Shown here piece after piece: positions 5,657-10,700 of a stretch of DNA of 13,254 bases. The notes under the pieces were generated by a model, which was given only the letters and a program-made list of their open reading frames with translations, had not been told where the DNA came from and did no database searches. Origin of the DNA: a virus; the UHGV virus genome UHGV-0215671; one strand, 5' to 3'. Within the stretch, counting starts at the first letter, position 1; every line of letters begins with the position of its first letter. Both the position numbers and the translations under genes were made by a program.

Positions 5657-5732
5657 TGGAGAATCCGAAGGGACTCGAACCCTTATAAACCTGTTTTGCA
5701 GACAGGCACATAGCCATTTCTGTCACGGATTC
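5657..5732 (-). tRNA. tRNA-Cys (GCA), 76 nt, CCA encoded
   Basis: Hand fold: acceptor GAATCCG/CGGATTC, anticodon stem CCTGT/ACAGG with loop CTGCAAA, T-arm AAGGG-TTCGAGT-CCCTT. Confidence 0.8.
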
Positions 5733-5736
5733 AAAT

Positions 5737-5829
5737 TGGAGGAAGATACCAGACTTGAACTGGTACACCGATTTCTCAGCTACTGGCAGTTTAGCAAACT
5801 GCTCCCTTACCTTTTAGGGTTAATCTTCC
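5737..5829 (-). tRNA. tRNA-Ser (GCU), class II, 93 nt
   Basis: Acceptor GGAAGAT/ATCTTCC, anticodon stem GCAGT/ACTGC with loop TTGCTAA, long variable arm, T-loop TTCAAGT. Confidence 0.75.
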
Positions 5830-5830
5830 A

Positions 5831-6565
5831 TTATTTCTGTAATGCGTTCTTCATTTCTGGTGTTGCAATAGTATCAATTACACCAGTTTTACAAGCATCA
5901 TCAAACCAGTCTGGTAAGATACCTGCTAAGAACCCATTGATATTCGTTTTAAGATACTCTGCAATAAGGGCAGCTTCTTCTTCAATCATCTGCACAACTT
6001 CATCTGCATAAGCTGTAATCTTTGAGATACCTTCATTAATCTTGCTAACAGCTTGGTTAGCTAAATCAGAAATAGTATCAAGACCTTTATCAATAGCATC
6101 TTGTAAGTCGCTTAATACATCATTAACACTATCTAGCGTGTTGTTAATCGTGTCAATAGCCTTTTGACCATATTCTGTAGCAACACCCATAATACCACTA
6201 AATGGTGTACAACCGACTTGCTCTCCTGCTGCACCCATAACATTGGAATATCCTTTTGCTACCTGCATACGTGAGGAAAACTCATCAATAGACTTTTGAC
6301 CATAATCTGTCAGCGTTTTAGTAGTCGATGTAGTGCTTGTCAGACTCGTTGTAAAGCTGTTAAGCAGAACTGTTGTAAGTCCAGCAGCAACAAGTTTATC
6401 CTTTATTGTAGGGTCTGTTACAGAGCTAATAGAGCTTACAAGTGATGTAGAGGCAGCTACGGTTCCACCGAGAACTGCTGCACCAGTAATAAGGGGATTA
6501 GAAAATCCTCTACCGGTTTTTAAGAGACTAAAAATCTCCTTACCTTGTTCTGTCATCTCTTTCAT
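5831..6565 (-). CDS. Hypothetical Ser/Thr/Ala-rich protein, 244 aa, embedded in the tRNA array
   Basis: Track ORF 5831-6628 begins inside tRNA-Phe; the internal ATG 6565-6563 is preceded by AAAGGTG with a 4-nt spacer, so start set to 6565. Stop lies 2 nt from the tRNA-Ser 5' end. Hydrophobic segment PLITGAAVLGGTVAASTSLV, then low-complexity S/T tract and a D/E-rich helical C-terminus. Confidence 0.5.
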   Translation of the reverse strand: MKEMTEQGKEIFSLLKTGRGFSNPLITGAAVLGGTVAASTSLVSSISSVTDPTIKDKLVAAGLTTVLLNSFTTSLTSTTSTTKTLTDYGQKSIDEFSSRMQVAKGYSNVMGAAGEQVGCTPFSGIMGVATEYGQKAIDTINNTLDSVNDVLSDLQDAIDKGLDTISDLANQAVSKINEGISKITAYADEVVQMIEEEAALIAEYLKTNINGFLAGILPDWFDDACKTGVIDTIATPEMKNALQK

Positions 6566-6581
6566 TAAGCACCTTTGGAAT

Positions 6582-6658
6582 TGGTAGTCCAGTGGGATTT
6601 GAACCCTCTTCTCATGTTTTTCAGACACGCGCTTTAACCATATAAGCTACTTGGACTA
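6582..6658 (-). tRNA. tRNA-Phe (GAA)
   Basis: Acceptor TAGTCCA/TGGACTA (U1-A72), anticodon stem CGTGT/ACATG with loop CTGAAAA, T-loop TTCAAAT; 3' boundary uncertain by about 2 nt. Confidence 0.65.
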
Positions 6659-6663
6659 TAAAT

Positions 6664-6739
6664 TGGGGTGACCTACGGGATTTGAACCCGTATAGACCAT
6701 GTTCACAGCATGGGTCATTACCATTTATGATAAGGCCAC
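6664..6739 (-). tRNA. tRNA-His (GUG)
   Basis: Acceptor GTGGCCT/AGGTCAC, D-stem TCAT/ATGA, anticodon stem CCATG/CATGG with loop CTGTGAA, discriminator C73, CCA encoded. Confidence 0.75.
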
Positions 6740-6740
6740 A

Positions 6741-6769
6741 TTTAAGGACTCTCGTAAGAATCCTTAAAT
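6741..6769. other. Inter-tRNA hairpin, 9-bp stem and 12-nt loop
   Basis: TTTAAGGA (6741-6748) pairs with TCCTTAAA (6761-6768), plus A6740-T6769; sits between tRNA-His and tRNA-Gln. Confidence 0.5.
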
Positions 6770-6770
6770 G

Positions 6771-6846
6771 TGGCAGCGGCATAAGGATTTGAACCTTAAT
6801 AAGACAGCTTCAGAGACTGCTGCATTGCCAGTTATGCTATACCGCT
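6771..6846 (-). tRNA. tRNA-Gln (CUG)
   Basis: Acceptor AGCGGTA/TGCCGCT, D-stem GCAT/ATGC, anticodon loop CTCTGAA on a stem with two G-U pairs, T-arm TAAGG-TTCAAAT-CCTTA. Confidence 0.6.
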
Positions 6847-6851
6847 AAATT

Positions 6852-6930
6852 TGGTACTCCATATCGGATTCGAACCGATACATAACACAGATTTTAAGTC
6901 TGGCCTCTCTGCCAATTGGAGTAATGGAGC
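6852..6930 (-). tRNA. tRNA with anticodon UAA (Leu by anticodon), 79 nt, short variable region
   Basis: Acceptor GCTCCAT/ATGGAGT, D-loop AATTGGCAG, anticodon stem CCAGA/TCTGT (one mismatch) with loop CTTAAAA, 7-nt variable region, T-arm ATCGG-TTCGAAT-CCGAT. Confidence 0.55.
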
Positions 6931-6932
6931 AT

Positions 6933-7008
6933 TGGCGGGGGATGTTGGAATTGAACCAACTTCTTCGATTTCAAAGACCGAGGTTTTAACCTTGTAAACT
7001 AATCCCCT
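6933..7008 (-). tRNA. tRNA-Gln (UUG)
   Basis: Acceptor AGGGGAT/ATCCCCC (A1/C72 unpaired), D-stem GTTT/AAAC, anticodon stem TCGGT/ATCGA with loop CTTTGAA, T-arm GTTGG-TTCAATT-CCAAC. Confidence 0.65.
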
Positions 7009-7016
7009 TTAAATCT

Positions 7017-7574
7017 TTATTTTCTTAGTGGATGAATAAAGAATGCCAACATAACTCTTTCCCTTGAGAATGCTCTTTCTTCTGGGACAACACTTTTAAG
7101 TTTCCATCCAACATAAATTCTCCAGTAGAATTGTTTACCAAAGATTTTAATTGATGGTACAAAAGCGAATAATCCCCAAGCATTACTGTTCCACATTAGT
7201 AGATAACCTGTCTGATTATCTTCAGGGTTAGAACTTACATTGATATTACCTTTCCACTTAGTAACATCTTTTACATCTCTTCCTAACACATGGTAAGAGA
7301 AGTTATAAGCTTTGTTTCTCCAGAGCCAACCAACTCTCTGCATATAGATACCAAGCTTACCAATCTTTCTAATCTTAGCCCATCGTTTGACATGGCCTTC
7401 ATCACCATCAATCGGGTTGTCGTAAGTTTCCATCCATCTAAATCCGAAAGGTAAGTGTCCTTTCTTCTCACTGTAAAATGGAACTACGAAAGGTGCTAAG
7501 ATAACTGCTAAGATTGCTGCAAATGGCTCTAACAAAGCTAAGAAAATCCATGAAGCATACTTCAAATATCTCAT
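7017..7574 (-). CDS. Hypothetical membrane-anchored protein, 185 aa, embedded in the tRNA array
   Basis: ORF track; ATG 7574-7572 preceded by AAAGAGG with an 8-nt spacer, 20 nt downstream of tRNA-Arg; hydrophobic N-terminus (WIFLALLEPFAAILAVILAPFVVPF) predicted transmembrane; Trp-rich. Confidence 0.55.
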   Translation of the reverse strand: MRYLKYASWIFLALLEPFAAILAVILAPFVVPFYSEKKGHLPFGFRWMETYDNPIDGDEGHVKRWAKIRKIGKLGIYMQRVGWLWRNKAYNFSYHVLGRDVKDVTKWKGNINVSSNPEDNQTGYLLMWNSNAWGLFAFVPSIKIFGKQFYWRIYVGWKLKSVVPEERAFSRERVMLAFFIHPLRK

Positions 7575-9858: not shown

Positions 9859-9870
9859 GAGCCAGACCAA

Positions 9871-9948
9871 GTTTTAAATTTTTTCAAAATTAAATTGGCT
9901 TGAAAATATCATACGTACTTGCTGAATTTGGTCTTCTGCTCCTTTAAA
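9871..9948. repeat. Repeated hairpin spacer unit c
   Basis: Left arm GCCAGACCAAG 9871-9881, right arm GCTGAATTTGGTCTTCTG 9931-9948; AGACCAA pairs with TTGGTCT. Confidence 0.45.
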
Positions 9949-10035
9949 GAATACTCGTAAGAACTCTTTAAGGGAGGGGCTAAATAGCCCTCTCAAAACA
10001 TCATCTTGAAATACTTATTATAATTTGGCGGTTAC

Positions 10036-10113
10036 GAAGGGATTTGAACCCTCATCATCTCCCGTGACAGGGGAGTATTTTAACCAGATTAAACTACATA
10101 ACCTTTATTTGGT
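10036..10113 (-). tRNA. tRNA-Asp (GUC)
   Basis: Acceptor GGTTATG/CGTAACC, perfect anticodon stem CTCCC/GGGAG with loop CTGTCAC, T-loop TTCAAAT. Confidence 0.75.
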
Positions 10114-10119
10114 GTGCCG

Positions 10120-10207
10120 TGTAGGAGTCGAACCTACCGAGTCTCAATGACAAGGGATTTACAGTCCCCACCGCTACCATCTACGGGATAACGACACATT
10201 TAAATTT
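10120..10207 (-). tRNA. tRNA-Tyr (GUA), class II, 88 nt
   Basis: Acceptor GTGTCGT/ACGGCAC, anticodon stem GGGGA/TCCCT with loop CTGTAAA, long variable region, perfect T-arm GTAGG-TTCGACT-CCTAC. Confidence 0.65.
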
Positions 10208-10216
10208 GGCGGTTAG

Positions 10217-10293
10217 TCAGGGATTCGAACCCTGTGCCATTCGCTTAACAGGCGACCGCACATACCTTATGTGCTTCCTAACCTTAATACATT
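10217..10293 (-). tRNA. tRNA-Asn (GUU)
   Basis: Acceptor GGTTAGG/ACTAACC (6 of 7 pairs), D-stem GCAC/GTGC, anticodon loop CTGTTAA, T-arm CAGGG-TTCGAAT-CCCTG. Confidence 0.7.
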
Positions 10294-10303
10294 GCCAGAC
10301 CGT

Positions 10304-10364
10304 GTTTTTTCTTTTATCCGCAAAAAGTATTTTGTTGCTGAATACGGTCTTCTGCAAAATTGGA
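10304..10364. repeat. Repeated hairpin spacer unit b
   Basis: Left arm GCCAGACCGTG 10304-10314, right arm GCTGAATACGGTCTTCTG 10347-10364; AGACCGT pairs with ACGGTCT. Confidence 0.45.
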
Positions 10365-10370
10365 GGCGGG

Positions 10371-10447
10371 TGCAGGAGTCGAACCTGCCGATACCATGCT
10401 AATGAGACATGTGAGACGCCCTTTCTCTATACCCGCAATTCTTAATG
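10371..10447 (-). tRNA. tRNA with anticodon CAU (Met or Ile2), U1/C72 unpaired
   Basis: Acceptor TGCGGGT/ACCCGCC with position 1-72 unpaired; anticodon stem CATGT/GCATG with loop CTCATTA; perfect T-arm GCAGG-TTCGACT-CCTGC. Confidence 0.6.
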
Positions 10448-10458
10448 ACCAGACCAAA

Positions 10459-10531
10459 CCTCTTCTTTGTCCGATTTCGTGTCAGATGAATAAGATTAAG
10501 TTTGCTGTAATTGGTCTTCTGTCAAAACTGG
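10459..10531. repeat. Repeated hairpin spacer unit a
   Basis: Left arm CCAGACCAA 10459-10467, right arm GCTGTAATTGGTCTTCTG 10514-10531; AGACCAA pairs with TTGGTCT. Confidence 0.45.
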
Positions 10532-10538
10532 CGTTCCA

Positions 10539-10616
10539 GAAGGGATTTGAACCCTCAAATATCCACTTTGAAAGAGTGGTGACTTTACCATTTTGTCTAC
10601 TGGAACATTAATTTGG
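10539..10616 (-). tRNA. tRNA-Glu (UUC)
   Basis: Perfect acceptor GTTCCAG/CTGGAAC, perfect anticodon stem CCACT/AGTGG with loop CTTTCAA, T-loop TTCAAAT. Confidence 0.75.
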
Positions 10617-10623
10617 TCTCTGT

Positions 10624-10700
10624 TGGAGGACTTGAACCTCCGGCCTTACCGCCCCAAACGGAACGCTCTACCAAGCTGAGCTAAACAGAGATAAACTTTT
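10624..10700 (-). tRNA. tRNA-Pro (UGG)
   Basis: Acceptor CTCTGTT/AACAGAG with C1-G72 and A73 as in bacterial tRNA-Pro; D-stem GCTC/GAGC; anticodon loop TTTGGGG with G37; perfect T-arm GGAGG-TTCAAGT-CCTCC. Confidence 0.75.

What the first reader, a model, noticed from the sequence alone, without database searches (positions are those of the whole stretch)
5657..10700. Near-complete decoding set in a single minus-strand array
By hand-read anticodons the array covers all 20 amino acids, with two isoacceptors each for Gln, Lys, Ser and CAU, three for Leu, and a possible second Arg. Spacings of 1-8 nt show tight packing with encoded CCA in most genes. A set this complete suggests the phage can buffer translation against host tRNA depletion or a codon-usage mismatch.
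Basis: partly seen in the sequence, partly recalled or inferred. Interest (0 to 1): 0.5.

Follow-up and report, generated by a model that had tools for sequence, protein, structure and literature searches.

The report
Felix-like phage tRNA gene island
This is the well-known tRNA gene cluster of a Felix O1-like coliphage (25 standard tRNAs for 19 amino acids), but between the tRNAs lie unannotated RNAs: four Y-RNA-like genes beside a Ro60-like protein gene, two odd tRNA-like genes (Trp, Arg-UCU) and a tmRNA-like tag RNA.

Summary
The window is a Felixounavirus (97.8% identical to Escherichia phage JN01). 24 of 25 encode CCA, and spacing inside sub-clusters is 1-9 nt. They cover 19 amino acids, not 20. 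No tool calls a tRNA-Trp. The "second Arg" is not a standard tRNA.

Both hand-read genes are nevertheless real, conserved, non-canonical tRNA-like RNAs with compensatory base changes: CCA at 8771-8689 and UCU at 8996-8915.

Codon use fits a supplementing role. AGA is 18-fold commoner than in E. coli, and A-ending codons match the U34 tRNAs. Related Felixounaviruses rescue a host lacking tRNA-Ser(UGA). As a tRNA array this is already known.

What is not annotated:
- The upstream 471-aa DUF2828 protein has a Ro60 fold.
- Four small RNAs inside the array share a covarying closing stem plus a UUACAGCAA motif. One carries a YrlA-type tRNA-like module.
- The same RNA family sits beside DUF2828 genes in at least 48 of 75 distant phage loci, always on the gene strand.
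- A promoter-driven RNA (9195-9036) encodes a tmRNA-type tag, ANDNVFLAVA, and recurs in 649 phage records.

The parts
10856..12271 (-). Ro60-like protein gene (471 aa; Pfam DUF2828 + DUF7788, vWA with DxSxS MIDAS), directly upstream of the array on the same strand
   Evidence: Pfam match. PHROG 850 'RNA-binding protein'. AF2 model pLDDT 87, pTM 0.88. The Foldseek top 12 PDB hits are all Ro60/Rsr/phage phiLo Ro60, E 4e-7 to 3e-6, TMq up to 0.66. D279, S281, S283, T349 and D381 are invariant.
10809..10837 (-). sigma70-like promoter (TTGACA-17-TAATAT) between the Ro60-like gene and the first tRNA
   Evidence: Consensus scan only.
10717..10746 (-). sigma70-like promoter (TTGACA-18-TAAAGT, TG extended), 27 nt upstream of tRNA-Pro
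   Evidence: Consensus scan only.
10614..10690 (-). tRNA-Pro (UGG)
   Evidence: ARAGORN. Rfam 57.7 bits. CCA encoded.
10529..10606 (-). tRNA-Glu (UUC)
   Evidence: ARAGORN. Rfam 60.6 bits.
10446..10524 (-). Y-RNA-like element A: 5' UGAC-AGA-AGACCAA-UUACAGCAA ... UUGGUCU-G-GUCA 3'
   Evidence: Motif search. Fold. Model R1, built from distant phages only, scores 33.5 bits, E 1.2e-6.
10361..10437 (-). atypical CAU tRNA (U1.C72 mismatch, 3 nt between acceptor and D stem, U37)
   Evidence: ARAGORN only. No Rfam hit at E<=1. Cloverleaf fold. Present in all relatives.
10292..10357 (-). Y-RNA-like element B: UUGC-AGA-AGACCGU-AUUCAGCAA ... ACGGUCU-G-GCAA
   Evidence: R1 scores 35.4 bits, E 3.7e-7.
10207..10283 (-). 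tRNA-Asn (GUU)
   Evidence: ARAGORN. Rfam 48 bits.
10110..10197 (-). tRNA-Tyr (GUA), long variable arm
   Evidence: ARAGORN. Rfam gives only a sub-threshold tRNA-Sec match. Annotated tRNA-Tyr in relatives.
10026..10103 (-). tRNA-Asp (GUC)
   Evidence: ARAGORN. Rfam 65.2 bits.
9859..9941 (-). Y-RNA-like element C: GAGC-AGA-AGACCAA-AUUCAGCAA ... UUGGUCU-G-GCUC
   Evidence: R1 scores 16.7 bits, E 0.023.
9714..9851 (-). Y-RNA-like element D, YrlA type. The closing stem UUAC-AGA-AGACCGU/ACGGUCU-G-GUAA encloses a tRNA-like module at 9792-9741: T arm GAAGG-UUCGAUU-CCUUC, closed acceptor ACUCGGC-AGAU-GUCGAGU, D arm GUG-UAAUGGUAG-CAC.
   Evidence: Sequence read. Rfam tRNA partial hit, 22 bits. The acceptor-like stem covaries in CHB7, Moogle and ESh19. 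The order of parts matches YrlA (PMC4201824).
9492..9567 (-). tRNA-Lys (UUU)
   Evidence: ARAGORN. Rfam 54.4 bits.
9411..9487 (-). tRNA-Met (CAU), canonical
   Evidence: ARAGORN. Rfam 53.7 bits.
9334..9409 (-). tRNA-Ile (GAU)
   Evidence: ARAGORN. Rfam 62.3 bits.
9290..9318 (-). sigma70-like promoter (TTGACA-17-TATAGT, 11 of 12 matches) upstream of the tag RNA
   Evidence: Equivalent promoters lie directly upstream of the element in Moogle, KpV2811 and Roscha1.
9036..9195 (-). tmRNA-like 'tag RNA'. The reading frame GCA..GCU at 9151-9122 encodes ANDNVFLAVA and is followed by UGA UAG (9121-9116). No tRNA-like domain was detected.
   Evidence: ARAGORN read the tag in Moogle. The frame is conserved as protein, with synonymous changes, across 9 unrelated phages. 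Three hairpins carry compensatory changes. 649 phage records match.
8915..8996 (-). non-canonical tRNA-like gene with invariant CUUCUAA loop (UCU, Arg AGA/AGG). It has no D arm; a 3-bp helix encloses the anticodon hairpin. CCA is encoded.
   Evidence: Rfam tRNA 31.7 bits. Allelic with canonical tRNA-Arg(UCU) in relatives. 263 phage records match, including jumbo, T5-like, phi92-like and Streptomyces phages. 100% of cells paired and 10 of 20 pairs compensatory.
8689..8771 (-). non-canonical tRNA-Trp-like gene (CCA anticodon, G73, CCA end, 8-nt insert before the D stem, 9-nt anticodon loop)
   Evidence: Not called by ARAGORN or Rfam. Conserved in Felixouna-, Susp- and Mooglevirus. 94% paired, with 6 compensatory pairs against 0 in slid controls. 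An analogous gene exists in distant phage L014.
8586..8675 (-). tRNA-Ser (UGA), no encoded CCA
   Evidence: ARAGORN. Rfam 33.2 bits. CCA check.
8254..8330 (-). tRNA-Leu (UAG)
   Evidence: ARAGORN. Rfam 58.9 bits.
8171..8246 (-). tRNA-Lys (CUU)
   Evidence: ARAGORN. Rfam 56.9 bits.
8089..8164 (-). tRNA-Ala (UGC)
   Evidence: ARAGORN. Rfam 62.7 bits.
8008..8082 (-). tRNA-Gly (UCC)
   Evidence: ARAGORN. Rfam 59.6 bits.
7925..8000 (-). tRNA-Thr (UGU)
   Evidence: ARAGORN. Rfam 58.4 bits.
7754..7828 (-). tRNA-Val (UAC)
   Evidence: ARAGORN. Rfam 55.8 bits.
7675..7752 (-). tRNA-Leu (CAA)
   Evidence: ARAGORN. Rfam 44 bits.
7594..7669 (-). tRNA-Arg (ACG)
   Evidence: ARAGORN. Rfam 59.8 bits.
7017..7574 (-). 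ORF inside the array, 185 aa, DUF7338 (annotated as membrane protein in some relatives)
   Evidence: Annotated CDS in relatives.
6933..7008 (-). tRNA-Gln (UUG)
   Evidence: ARAGORN. Rfam 56.6 bits.
6852..6930 (-). tRNA-Leu (UAA)
   Evidence: ARAGORN. Rfam 47.5 bits.
6771..6846 (-). tRNA-Gln (CUG)
   Evidence: ARAGORN. Rfam 58.7 bits.
6664..6739 (-). tRNA-His (GUG)
   Evidence: ARAGORN. Rfam 53.3 bits.
6582..6657 (-). tRNA-Phe (GAA)
   Evidence: ARAGORN. Rfam 45 bits.
5831..6565 (-). ORF inside the array, 244 aa, DUF7217
   Evidence: Annotated CDS in relatives.
5737..5829 (-). tRNA-Ser (GCU)
   Evidence: ARAGORN. Rfam 46.2 bits.
5657..5732 (-). tRNA-Cys (GCA), last gene of the array
   Evidence: ARAGORN. 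Rfam 56.4 bits.
5477..5494 (-). terminator-like hairpin plus T run downstream of the last tRNA
   Evidence: Consensus scan only.

Best explanation
The interval is the tRNA gene island of a Felixounavirus, a Felix O1/wV8-like myovirus of E. coli and Salmonella of about 88 kb.

Shown:
- There are 25 canonical, CCA-encoding, co-oriented tRNA genes for 19 amino acids, packed 1-9 nt apart in sub-clusters.
- sigma70-like promoters lie at the head of the island (10837, 10746) and inside it (9318).
- Two further conserved but non-canonical tRNA-like genes carry CCA (Trp) and UCU (Arg AGA/AGG) anticodons.
- Most anticodons have U34 and match the A-ending codons this AT-rich phage prefers.

Inferred mechanism:
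- The island is transcribed as polycistronic precursors.
- Host RNase P and 3' exonucleases cut these into mature tRNAs.
- The tRNAs top up the decoders the phage needs most: AGA, UUA, ACA, UCA, CCA, CUA, GGA.
- They keep translation going when host tRNAs are scarce, missing or destroyed.

The island is also more than tRNAs.

Shown:
- It begins directly downstream of a gene for a Ro60-fold protein (DUF2828).
- Four small RNAs are interleaved among the first tRNAs, 3-8 nt from their neighbours.
- These RNAs form a family with a covarying terminal stem, an A-rich/G internal loop and a single-stranded UUACAGCAA motif.
- One of them carries a YrlA-type tRNA-like module.
- The same RNA family accompanies DUF2828 genes in many unrelated phages, often next to tRNA arrays or tmRNA genes.

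Inferred: these are Y-RNA-like partners of the Ro60-like protein, forming an RNP that acts in RNA surveillance, processing or repair for the phage's stable RNAs.
For: Identity:
- 97.8% identity to Escherichia phage JN01; 406 phage records match.
- The same tRNAs are annotated in SP22, LTH02, CHB7, Moogle and ESh19.

tRNAs:
- ARAGORN genes.
- Rfam finds 24 matches above gathering: 23 of the 25 ARAGORN genes plus 8918-8996.
- 24 of 25 encode CCA, with tight spacing.

Codon match:
- Codon-usage comparison.

Function in relatives:
- Felixounaviruses infect Syn61-delta-3, and phages that carry tRNA-Ser(UGA) rescue decoding there (PMC12269064).

Non-canonical tRNAs:
- Covariation counts support both structures.
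- The UCU gene is allelic with a canonical tRNA-Arg(UCU), and AGA is the most host-mismatched codon.

Ro60 fold:
-, with conserved MIDAS residues.

Y-like RNA family:
- Four copies share the motif and have paralogue-covarying stems.
- In 75 distant DUF2828 loci a strict pattern gives 61 hits on the gene strand, 1 on the opposite strand and 0-4 in shuffles.
- 48 of 75 loci have a hit, and 45 have one within 1.5 kb of the gene.
- A covariance model trained only on distant phages ranks the window's four elements as its top four hits.
- That model gives 56 of 56 hits on the gene strand and none in the E. coli control.
- Long members hit Rfam YrlA at E about 4e-5 and contain a T arm, closed acceptor and D arm.
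- tRNA arrays start less than 600 nt downstream of DUF2828 genes in 9 of 28 distant loci.
- tmRNA genes lie nearby in 4 loci.
Against: - There are no expression, processing, charging or binding data for this phage. Promoters and the terminator are consensus matches only; 13 promoter-like sites were found against 11.6 expected.
- The codon-usage test is weak (p = 0.049, only 2396 phage codons, and no split into early and late genes).
- The Ro60 assignment rests on a predicted structure. Sequence and profile searches against PDB found nothing.
- The window's element D does not hit Rfam YrlA. The elements lack the bacterial GNCGAA(N)G Ro-binding motif and have CAGAAG instead.
- The stem covariation in the pattern scan is partly circular, because pairing was a search criterion. 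The non-circular support is the strand bias, the shuffles and the cross-trained model.
- Many DUF2828 loci have no adjacent tRNA array.
Confidence: 0.85

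Rival explanations
1. The array exists mainly as a counter-defence. It replaces host tRNAs that are cleaved by anticodon nucleases or retron, PARIS or PrrC-type systems, or lost in host shut-off, rather than correcting codon bias. On this view the odd structures of the Trp, UCU and CAU genes are nuclease-evasion variants.
For: - Felixounaviruses tolerate a host that lacks two tRNA-Ser genes.
- Most Felixounavirus species escaped retron Eco2, a system that cleaves tRNAs (PMC12916289). That paper cites work on phage tRNAs evading tRNA-targeting defences (PMC11555353, PMC10264068).
- Three conserved non-canonical tRNA-like genes sit among canonical ones.
- The array also holds tRNAs for codons the phage does not over-use, such as GAA, AAC, UUC, UGC and CAG.
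Against: - The strongest codon mismatches (AGA, UUA, ACA, UCA, CCA) coincide with phage tRNAs, so supply matching explains much of the set.
- No nuclease target is identified.
- The anticodon loops of the odd genes are canonical (CUUCUAA, CUCCAAA), whereas described evasion acts through anticodon-loop changes.
- This is not exclusive of the main explanation.
Confidence: 0.35
2. The four repeated elements are not Ro60 partners. They are processing or spacer signals of the tRNA operon (RNase E/III/P guide hairpins or terminators), or scars and targets of the homing endonucleases that populate this region.
For: - They lie 3-8 nt from flanking tRNAs (plus coordinates).
- Single-sequence folding z-scores are modest, -1.1 to -1.9.
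- HNH or endonuclease ORFs are inserted between tRNAs in relatives.
- No binding data exist.
Against: - The same family occurs next to DUF2828 genes that have no tRNA array, for example L017, L019, L024 and L030, where it starts 29-35 nt after the stop codon and no tRNA lies within 6 kb.
- A conserved single-stranded 9-mer plus a freely covarying stem is typical of a protein-binding RNA.
- Long members carry a YrlA-like tRNA mimic and hit Rfam YrlA.
- Strand bias is absolute, 56:0.
Confidence: 0.12
3. The CCA- and UCU-bearing non-canonical genes are not decoders. They are tRNA mimics: decoys for nucleases, synthetases or modification enzymes, or effector modules comparable to the YrlA tRNA-like domain.
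For: - Neither passes ARAGORN.
- The UCU RNA lacks a D arm, which carries A20, the major ArgRS identity element in E. coli (textbook knowledge).
- The Trp-like gene has an 8-nt insert and, in this window, a U.U mismatch in the T stem.
- The UCU RNA also occurs as an isolated gene outside tRNA clusters, for example in PBECO4.
Against: - Both keep a 7-bp acceptor, a T arm with GUUCGA loop, an encoded CCA end and an invariant 7-nt anticodon-loop sequence.
- The Trp-like gene keeps G73 and, in most relatives, A1-U72. These are TrpRS identity elements (textbook knowledge).
- The UCU gene swaps with a canonical tRNA-Arg(UCU) at the same locus.
- Without it the phage would lack a decoder for its most host-mismatched codon.
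Confidence: 0.3
4. The array is a decaying relic with many pseudogenes and little present function.
For: - Some annotators label members as pseudogenes or 'tRNA-OTHER'.
- Three atypical genes are present.
Against: - Gene order and anticodons are conserved across three genera at 82-98% identity.
- Rfam scores are 44-65 bits for most genes.
- The atypical genes show compensatory substitutions.
- Relatives show functional rescue of a tRNA-deficient host.
Confidence: 0.03

Closest known systems
Felix O1 / Felixounavirus tRNA gene cluster (annotated in GenBank records such as SP22 LC519489, EcoM2 PQ818761 and CHB7 MK562504)
   Same: It has the same genes in the same order on the same strand, at 82-98% DNA identity. 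The same two embedded ORFs are present, with terminase downstream and the DUF2828 gene upstream.
   Different: Nothing essential differs. This window lacks the HNH or endonuclease insertions of SP22 and carries the non-canonical UCU allele instead of a canonical tRNA-Arg(UCU). The records annotate none of the Y-like RNAs, the tag RNA or the Trp-like gene.
tRNA clusters of T4-like and T5-like phages
   Same: These are also co-oriented, tightly spaced phage tRNA genes interspersed with small stable RNAs, small ORFs and homing endonucleases. They supplement host decoding. Individual tRNAs (Tyr, Asp, Ser, Thr) share 76-96% identity with T4-, T5- and rV5-like phage tRNAs.
   Different: The gene order and phage lineage differ. 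A link to a Ro60-like gene has not, to my knowledge, been described for T4 or T5.
Bacterial Rsr (Ro60) with YrlA/YrlB Y RNAs (Salmonella, Deinococcus; PMC4201824) and Thermus phage phiLo Ro60 with Yrl1/2 (PMC12135203)
   Same: - The protein has the Ro60 fold: a TROVE ring plus a vWA/MIDAS domain.
- The small RNAs are encoded within 1.5 kb on the same strand.
- The 5' and 3' ends pair in a stem with an internal loop next to a conserved 5' motif.
- One RNA per locus carries a module in the order V, T arm, closed acceptor, D arm, as in YrlA.
- Several paralogous Y-like RNAs occur per locus.
   Different: - The protein is not detectable as TROVE by sequence. Pfam calls it DUF2828/DUF7788, and there are no PDB sequence hits.
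- The conserved RNA motif is AGA-AGR...UUACAGCAA with a 3' ..YCU-G, not GNCGAA(N)G.
- The RNAs are embedded in a tRNA array.
- There is no rtcBA neighbour, and no binding or PNPase data.
tmRNA (SsrA)
   Same: - The tag ANDNVFLAVA resembles E. coli ANDENYALAA.
- It starts with a GCA 'resume' codon preceded by an A-rich AUAAAU and has no start codon.
- The stop codon lies in a hairpin loop.
- Full phage tmRNAs next to DUF2828 genes end in ..GELAVA.
   Different: ARAGORN and Rfam find no tRNA-like domain (acceptor, T arm, CCA) here or in HK633, Det7 or KpV2811. The RNA is only about 160 nt, and Rfam tmRNA scores are 16-25 bits against a gathering score of 47.
Dictyostelium Class I RNAs (Rfam RF01414; PMC7919456)
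   Same: - They are about 60 nt long.
- A short covarying stem joins the 5' and 3' ends.
- A conserved unpaired motif, CCUUACAGCAA, follows the 5' strand directly. Its most conserved positions are the same C..CAA.
- The 3' end reads ..C-UGU.
- Many paralogues exist.
   Different: - Rfam scores are only 14-24 bits against a gathering score of 41.5, and the hit does not recur in 5 distant loci at E<=5.
- The organisms are unrelated.
- The known Class I binder is an RRM protein.
- Homology is untested and the resemblance may be chance or convergence.

Membership tests
Bacterial-type tRNA genes (Rfam RF00005 / ARAGORN cloverleaf) | Cloverleaf with a 7-bp acceptor, D arm, 5-bp anticodon stem with 7-nt loop, and T arm, scoring above the family threshold | tested here: met
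   ARAGORN genes. 23 of them are above the Rfam gathering score of 29, at 33-65 bits. Tyr and the atypical CAU gene are ARAGORN-only. The CCA (8771-8689) and UCU (8996-8915) genes do NOT meet this test, so they are filed as non-canonical tRNA-like.
Bacterial-type tRNA genes | Aminoacylation and use in decoding | not testable with these tools
   The only evidence is indirect: relatives rescue a host lacking tRNA-Ser.
Felixounavirus tRNA cluster | Collinear DNA homology to the tRNA region of recognised Felixounavirus genomes, flanked by the terminase and the DUF2828 gene | tested here: met
   100% coverage at 95.6-97.8% identity to more than 20 records. 212 records cover at least 80%. Pfam finds terminase and portal in the window.
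Complete (20-amino-acid) decoding set | At least one standard tRNA for every amino acid | tested here: not met
   No standard tRNA-Trp is found in the window or in 5 relatives. 42 of 61 sense codons are readable.
Ro60 / TROVE protein family | Ring of HEAT-like helical repeats followed by a vWA domain with a MIDAS motif | tested here: met
   This rests on a predicted structure only. The top 12 Foldseek hits are Ro60/Rsr over the full length, with about 510-570 aligned columns, E about 1e-6 and TMq 0.49-0.66. DxSxS..T..D is invariant.
Ro60 / TROVE protein family | Detectable sequence membership (Pfam TROVE, or a profile hit to solved Ro60) | tested here: not met
   Pfam gives DUF2828, DUF7788 and a weak VWA_2 match. 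phmmer and hmmsearch against PDB found no Ro60.
Ro60 / TROVE protein family | Binds Y RNAs or misfolded RNAs | not testable with these tools
   No data.
YrlA/YrlB-type Y RNAs (Rfam RF02553; PMC4201824) | Encoded within about 4 kb of the Ro60 gene on the same strand | tested here: met
   The window elements lie 330-1140 nt downstream on the same strand. 45 of 75 distant loci have a hit within 1.5 kb, and strand bias is 61:1 and 56:0.
YrlA/YrlB-type Y RNAs | tRNA-like module in the order V - T arm - closed acceptor stem - D arm, between the paired 5'/3' ends (YrlA) | tested here: met
   Element D carries it at 9792-9741. Long members do so in L018, L021, L033, L040, L046 and L058. Rfam YrlA hits L018 and L034 at 39 bits, E 4e-5, which is sub-threshold against a gathering score of 69.
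YrlA/YrlB-type Y RNAs | 5' Ro-binding motif GNCGAA(N0-1)G | tested here: not met
   The elements have (N)CAGAAGACC or AAAGGNNNN plus UUACAGCAA instead. The window elements give no RF02553 hit. They are therefore described as 'works like' Y RNAs and are not filed as RF02553 members.
tmRNA (RF00023) | Alanine-accepting tRNA-like domain (acceptor with G3.U70, T arm, CCA) joined to the tag reading frame | tested here: not met
   ARAGORN calls no tmRNA in the window, HK633, Det7 or KpV2811. Rfam scores are 16-25 bits against 47. The permuted call in Moogle spans three real tRNAs and is probably an artefact apart from the tag.
tmRNA (RF00023) | Tag reading frame without a start codon, ending in hydrophobic ..A(V/A)A plus stop, and conserved as protein | tested here: met
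   Nine phages encode AND(N/E/D/A)x(F/Y/V)L(A/M)(V/A)A with synonymous differences. HK633 has an in-frame TAG 24 nt upstream and no start codon.
Dictyostelium Class I RNA (RF01414) | Score above the family gathering threshold | tested here: not met
   24.0 and 14.3 bits against 41.5. There were no hits at E<=5 in 5 distant loci.

The most novel reading that the evidence does not exclude
DUF2828 proteins, together with the 'stem + UUACAGCAA' RNAs, form a previously unrecognised and widespread phage version of the Ro60-Y RNA system. It is built into phage stable-RNA islands (tRNA arrays and tmRNA genes) and services them.

The same islands carry structurally rearranged tRNAs (a D-armless UCU type and an insert-bearing Trp type). 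They also carry a tRNA-domain-less tmRNA-like tag RNA that has spread among unrelated enterobacterial phage families.

A further and much less likely extension (about 0.1): Dictyostelium Class I RNAs share every conserved feature of the short phage RNAs, and could be Y-RNA-like partners of a eukaryotic DUF2828/TROVE-like protein.
Probability: 0.55. Interest if true: 0.7.

Novelty: already known. Interest (0 to 1): 0.4.

Why it matters
As a tRNA array, this finding adds nothing new. Felixounavirus tRNA clusters are annotated in hundreds of GenBank records, and their seryl-tRNA is already known to defeat codon-compressed hosts.

The value lies in what standard annotation leaves blank between the tRNAs.

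1. A Ro60-fold protein and a family of Y-RNA-like RNAs travel together with phage tRNA and tmRNA islands. This is a testable lead on what Ro60/Y RNPs do, namely quality control or repair of stable RNAs, in a tractable coliphage.
2. Two conserved non-canonical tRNAs cover exactly the gaps (Trp and AGA) that make the set look incomplete to software. tRNA counts from ARAGORN or tRNAscan therefore under-report phage decoding capacity.
3. A tmRNA-like tag RNA without a tRNA domain is present in 649 phage records from unrelated families, with no annotation under the matches in nearly all of the records inspected. It raises the question of how, or whether, phages tamper with trans-translation.

I found no paper in the searchable library describing any of these three items, but that library is incomplete.

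Tried and rejected
1. A circularly permuted tRNA gene of the Cyanidioschyzon type at 9792-9741. Rejected: the 3'-half then 5'-half order, a closed acceptor and a flanking conserved stem are the YrlA architecture.

2. Small self-cleaving ribozymes (hairpin AGAA loop, hammerhead CUGA..GAAA) for the repeated CAGAAGACC elements. Rejected: the internal loop is 3x1 rather than 4x4, the motifs are not conserved among the copies, and Rfam gives no ribozyme hit.

3. The UCU and Trp genes as decayed pseudogenes. Rejected: both show compensatory substitutions and are conserved well beyond their flanks.

4. The UCU tRNA-like gene as the tRNA-like domain of the adjacent tag RNA. Not supported: phages carrying the tag RNA have a canonical tRNA-Arg there (Moogle) or no tRNA at all within 700 nt (HK633, Det7, KpV2811).

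5. The tag frame as an ordinary small ORF starting at the overlapping AUG. Rejected: that +1 frame is not conserved and has no common stop in Roscha1.

6. Sequence-based proof of Ro60 homology. phmmer and a 34-sequence profile against PDB found nothing. Only the fold search worked.

7. Testing for a Dictyostelium DUF2828 homologue. The afdb50 fold library was unavailable, and a paper search for DDB_G0281243 gave no annotation.

8. Counting stem covariation on pattern-selected elements. Not used as evidence because it is circular. Strand bias, shuffles and a cross-trained covariance model were used instead.

9. The second CAU gene as tRNA-Ile2 (lysidine) needed for AUA. Unlikely on supply grounds: AUA is rare in the phage at 1.3 per 1000. 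Its identity remains open.

Full report
**What the window is**

Megablast of 5600-10860 against 50,697 phage records gives 406 matching records. The best is Escherichia phage JN01 at 97.8% identity over 100% of the query. Hits fall in Felixounavirus, Suspvirus and Mooglevirus of the Ounavirinae.

Pfam places a portal gene (2128-3603) and the large terminase (3611-5227) downstream of the interval. A DUF2828/DUF7788 protein gene (10856-12271) lies upstream, all on the minus strand. GC content is about 39-40% throughout.

**Checking the observation**

ARAGORN finds 25 tRNA genes, all on the minus strand, from 10690 down to 5657. Rfam's tRNA model exceeds its gathering score for 23 of them, and also for one extra locus at 8918-8996.

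- Gln CUG and UUG
- Lys CUU and UUU
- Ser GCU and UGA
- two CAU genes
- Leu UAA, CAA and UAG
- Arg ACG

Twenty-four of 25 genes end in a genomic CCA. Ser-UGA is the exception. Neighbours inside sub-clusters are 1-9 nt apart.

The array is interrupted by gaps of 31, 77, 91, 96, 255, 458, 585, 658 and 752 nt. The standard genes cover 19 amino acids. No tool calls a tRNA-Trp here or in five relatives.

**The two hand-read extras are real but non-canonical**

*CCA gene (Trp-like), 8771-8689*

This 83-nt gene has the following features:
- a 7-bp acceptor, G1.U72 here and A1-U72 in most relatives
- discriminator G73 and an encoded CCA
- an 8-nt insert before a 3-bp D stem
- a 5-bp anticodon stem closing a 9-nt loop, C-CUCCAAA-A
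- a weak T stem, with a U.U mismatch in this window only

Across Felixouna-, Susp- and Mooglevirus it is more conserved than its flanks. On six sequences 94% of cells pair. Six pairs show compensatory changes, including four of the five anticodon-stem pairs, against none in slid controls. A distant phage, L014, has its own CCA-bearing variant, which ARAGORN also misses.

*UCU gene, 8996-8915*

This 82-nt gene has a 7-bp acceptor, a 5-bp hairpin with an invariant CUUCUAA loop, a T arm and CCA. It has no D arm. Instead a 3-bp helix (CUC/GAG) encloses the anticodon hairpin, and a D-loop-like UAANUGGAGUAU occupies the variable-loop position.

Some relatives (SP22) carry this allele at the slot. 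Others (LTH02, CHB7, Moogle, ESh19) carry a canonical 77-nt tRNA-Arg(UCU).

The odd allele occurs at 81-100% identity in 263 phage records. These include Asteriusvirus jumbo phages, phi92-like, Mydovirus and T5-like Sugarland phages, and a Streptomyces phage. On six of them all 120 cells pair and 10 of 20 pairs carry compensatory changes. Slid controls pair at 35-51%.

*Atypical CAU gene, 10437-10361*

ARAGORN calls this gene but Rfam does not. It has U1.C72, three linker nucleotides and U37.

**Function of the tRNA set**

I compared nine window genes (2396 codons) with 40 E. coli K-12 genes (14,421 codons). The phage strongly over-uses several codons (per 1000, phage vs host):

| Codon | Phage | E. 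coli |
|---|---|---|
| AGA | 22.1 | 1.2 |
| UUA | 27 | 10 |
| ACA | 23 | 5.5 |
| UCA | 21 | 5 |
| CCA | 24 | 8.5 |

CUA, GGA, GUA and GCA are also over-used. Apart from AGA these are the Watson-Crick partners of the phage's U34 tRNAs; AGA is matched only by the non-canonical UCU gene.

Cognate codons are relatively enriched, with mean log2 RSCU ratio +0.32 against -0.39, one-sided p = 0.049.

The 25 tRNAs read 42 of 61 sense codons by simple wobble, which is 72.5% of phage codons. The uncovered codons include AGA/AGG and UGG, exactly the ones served by the two odd genes. AUA is rare (1.3 per 1000), so a lysidine-type Ile2 role for the second CAU gene is not demanded.

Experimental support comes from relatives. 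Eight Felixounaviruses (REP05-12) infect Syn61-delta-3, which lacks serT and serU, and phages carrying tRNA-Ser(UGA) restore decoding there (PMC12269064). REP11 and REP12 are among my BLAST hits. Most Felixounavirus species also escaped retron Eco2, a system that cuts tRNAs (PMC12916289).

The set supplements host decoding, but it is not a complete stand-alone set.

**What fills the gaps: a Ro60-like gene and Y-RNA-like genes**

*The protein*

The 471-aa protein upstream has no sequence-level match to solved structures. An AlphaFold model built from a 34-sequence alignment (pLDDT 87, pTM 0.88) matches Ro60 proteins over its full length. The top 12 Foldseek hits are all Ro60: X. laevis and human Ro60, D. 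radiodurans Rsr and Thermus phage phiLo Ro60, at E 4e-7 to 3e-6. Only isolated vWA domains follow. A DxSxS...T...D MIDAS signature is invariant.

*The four elements in the window*

The motif AGAAGACCNNNTNCAGCAA occurs four times on the minus strand of the array. Each copy is followed 50-120 nt later by GGUCUGG.

All four fold as 5'-NNNC-AGA-AGACCRN ... NYGGUCU-G-GNNN-3'. The outer stem differs between copies but always pairs:
- UGAC/GUCA
- UUGC/GCAA
- GAGC/GCUC
- UUAC/GUAA

Elements A and B start 3-4 nt after the CCA of the upstream tRNA and end 8 nt before the next tRNA.

Element D (9851-9714) encloses a T arm, a closed 7-bp acceptor-like stem and a D arm. This is the order described for YrlA (PMC4201824). 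Its acceptor-like stem is replaced by different but still paired sequences in CHB7, Moogle and ESh19.

*The family beyond Felixounavirus*

I fetched 80 viral contigs that encode DUF2828 homologues. Seventy-five of them are only 39-47% identical. The results were:
- A strict pattern (7-bp stem, 3 nt, CAGCAA, 12-190 nt, complementary strand, G) hits 61 times on the gene strand. It hits once on the other strand and 0-4 times in 20 dinucleotide shuffles.
- Forty-eight of 75 loci have at least one hit. Forty-five have one within 1.5 kb of the gene, and 27 hits start within 300 nt of the stop codon.
- The stems are almost all different, while UUACAGCAA, the 5' A-AGR and the 3' YCU-G are conserved.
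- Long members contain complete tRNA-like modules (L018, L021, L033, L040, L046, L058). They give sub-threshold but significant hits to Rfam YrlA at 39 bits, E 4e-5.
- A covariance model trained only on 20 short elements from distant phages ranks the window's four elements as its four best hits: B at 35.4 bits (E 3.7e-7), A at 33.5, C at 16.7 and D at 12.8.
- Over 917 kb that model gives 56 hits, all on the gene strand. None fall in an E. coli control or in two unrelated phage loci.

In 9 of 28 distant loci a tRNA array begins less than 600 nt downstream of the DUF2828 gene. Four loci carry full tmRNA genes on the same strand.

I conclude, by inference, that these are Y-RNA-like partners of a Ro60-like protein, and that this module is habitually attached to phage stable-RNA islands. 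They do not meet two YrlA membership criteria: the GNCGAA(N)G motif and the Rfam threshold. I therefore describe them as working like Y RNAs, not as RF02553 members.

No paper in the searchable library connects DUF2828 with Ro60 or Y RNAs.

**A tmRNA-like tag RNA**

ARAGORN on phage Moogle reported a 'permuted tmRNA' with the tag ANDNVFLAVA. The same frame is in the window at 9151-9122, followed by UGA UAG. It lies downstream of the best promoter match in the region (9318-9290, 11 of 12 positions).

The roughly 125-160 nt element matches 649 phage records. These include Kuttervirus, Taipeivirus, lambdoid HK633 (between PR' and the holin gene), the unclassified Klebsiella siphovirus KpV2811 (46 kb), Schitoviridae and a T5-size phage; most listed records annotate nothing there, and a few carry only a 'hypothetical protein' CDS.

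In nine unrelated phages the frame is conserved as protein, with synonymous differences:
- ANDNVFLAVA
- ANDAQFLAVA
- ANEEMYLAVA
- ANDNTFLAVA
- ANDDVVLMAA
- ANDNQYLAVA

It has no start codon, and three hairpins show compensatory changes.

No tRNA-like domain is detectable, so it fails tmRNA membership. The 2014 tmRNA census lists phage ssrA only in mycobacteriophages and Bacillus phage G (PMC4131195). How the RNA works is open. It could be a template, a decoy for SmpB or the ribosome, or one piece of a two-piece system.

**Other content**

Two ORFs sit inside the array: DUF7217 at 5831-6565 and DUF7338 at 7017-7574. The 151 nt between element D and tRNA-Lys fold with a 25-bp closing stem, z = -5.85. 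The region 8331-8585 is also structured, z = -2.8. Neither was identified.

**Resemblance to Dictyostelium Class I RNAs**

Rfam's only recurring weak hit on the short elements is Dictyostelium Class I RNA, at 24 and 14 bits. Published Class I features are:
- about 60 nt long
- a covarying 6-bp stem joining the ends
- an unpaired CCUUACAGCAA motif directly after the 5' strand
- a 3' C-UGU end

(PMC7919456.) The phage RNAs match these features. However, the scores are below threshold and did not recur in five distant loci. I could not test whether dictyostelids have a DUF2828 protein. I treat this as a lead only.

**Verdict**

The finding as submitted is a real, functional and already well-known phage tRNA cluster. 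The claim of a 20-amino-acid set holds only if two non-canonical genes are functional, and the codon-mismatch and buffering interpretation is reasonable.

The more interesting content of the interval is what is not annotated:
- a Ro60-like/Y-RNA-like module
- rearranged tRNAs
- a tRNA-domain-less tmRNA-like RNA

All three are supported by comparative evidence, but no experiment has tested them.

Noticed in passing
window 10446-10524, 10292-10357, 9859-9941, 9714-9851 (- strand) and gene 10856-12271: Four unannotated Y-RNA-like genes lie inside the tRNA array, next to a DUF2828 protein with a predicted Ro60 fold. They share a covarying closing stem, an AGA/G internal loop and a UUACAGCAA motif, and one carries a YrlA-type tRNA-like module. 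The same RNA family flanks DUF2828 genes in at least 48 of 75 distant phage loci, always on the gene strand.
   Followed up: yes
window 9036-9195 (- strand); promoter 9290-9318: A promoter-driven RNA of about 160 nt carries a tmRNA-type tag frame (ANDNVFLAVA, two stops, no start codon) but no detectable tRNA-like domain. It is conserved in 649 phage records from unrelated families (Kuttervirus, lambdoid HK633, the unclassified Klebsiella phage KpV2811, Schitoviridae, a T5-size phage), nearly all without annotation at the site.
   Followed up: partly
window 8915-8996 (- strand): A D-armless tRNA-like gene has an invariant UCU anticodon loop and an encoded CCA. It is allelic with a canonical tRNA-Arg(UCU) in relatives and is present in 263 phage records, including jumbo, phi92-like, T5-like and Streptomyces phages. 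10 of 20 pairs are compensatory.
   Followed up: yes
window 8689-8771 (- strand); L014 about 9990-10070: A non-canonical tRNA-Trp-like gene (8-nt insert before the D stem, 9-nt anticodon loop) is invisible to ARAGORN and Rfam but conserved with compensatory changes. In this window alone it has a U.U mismatch in the T stem.
   Followed up: yes
window 10361-10437 (- strand): The second CAU tRNA is atypical (U1.C72 mismatch, 3-nt linker before the D stem, U37, no Rfam hit). It is flanked on both sides by Y-like elements A and B. Whether it is an elongator Met, an initiator-like tRNA or Ile2 is unresolved. AUA is rare in the phage.
   Followed up: partly
window 9568-9718 (- strand): The 151 nt between Y-like element D and tRNA-Lys(UUU) fold into a multibranch structure closed by a stem of about 25 bp (MFE -48.3 kcal/mol, z = -5.85). 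No family match was found and the function is unknown.
   Followed up: no
window 8331-8585 (- strand): This 255-nt spacer between tRNA-Leu(UAG) and tRNA-Ser(UGA) contains several hairpins, including a 26-nt inverted repeat (z = -2.8). In SP22 an extra ORF is inserted at this position.
   Followed up: no
window 7829-7924 (- strand): The 96-nt spacer between tRNA-Thr and tRNA-Val contains CUGAAGACCGUAAC, which resembles the 5' motif of the Y-like elements. It lacks CAGCAA and the 3' GGUCUGG, so it may be a degenerate copy.
   Followed up: no
window elements A-D; Rfam RF01414 hits at 10296-10349 and 9718-9843: The short Y-like RNAs share their architecture and the UUACAGCAA / ..C-UGU features with Dictyostelium Class I RNAs. 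Those RNAs have been reported as unique to dictyostelids and their function is unknown. Scores are below threshold (24 and 14 bits against 41.5).
   Followed up: partly
L047 11822-12176, L054 12119-12479, L085 11715-12132, L086 9696-10187: Full one-piece tmRNA genes lie on the same strand as the DUF2828 Ro60-like gene in distant phages. The two whose tags ARAGORN read (L047, L054) end in ..GELAVA, like the ..LAVA tag of the window's element.
   Followed up: partly
L058 5734-5833; L018 5286-5398: In some distant phages the Y-like closing stem encloses a sequence that scores as a full tRNA in Rfam (52.9 bits in L058).
   Followed up: no
L001 (SP22) 2904-3317 and 4700-5047; JN01, BPS15Q2 and others: Relatives carry HNH or endonuclease VII-type ORFs inserted between tRNA genes. 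These are absent from this window, so the tRNA island is a hotspot for homing-endonuclease gain and loss.
   Followed up: no
L034 11696-11922: A group I intron (Rfam 71.5 bits) lies downstream of the tRNA array in one distant DUF2828-encoding phage contig.
   Followed up: no
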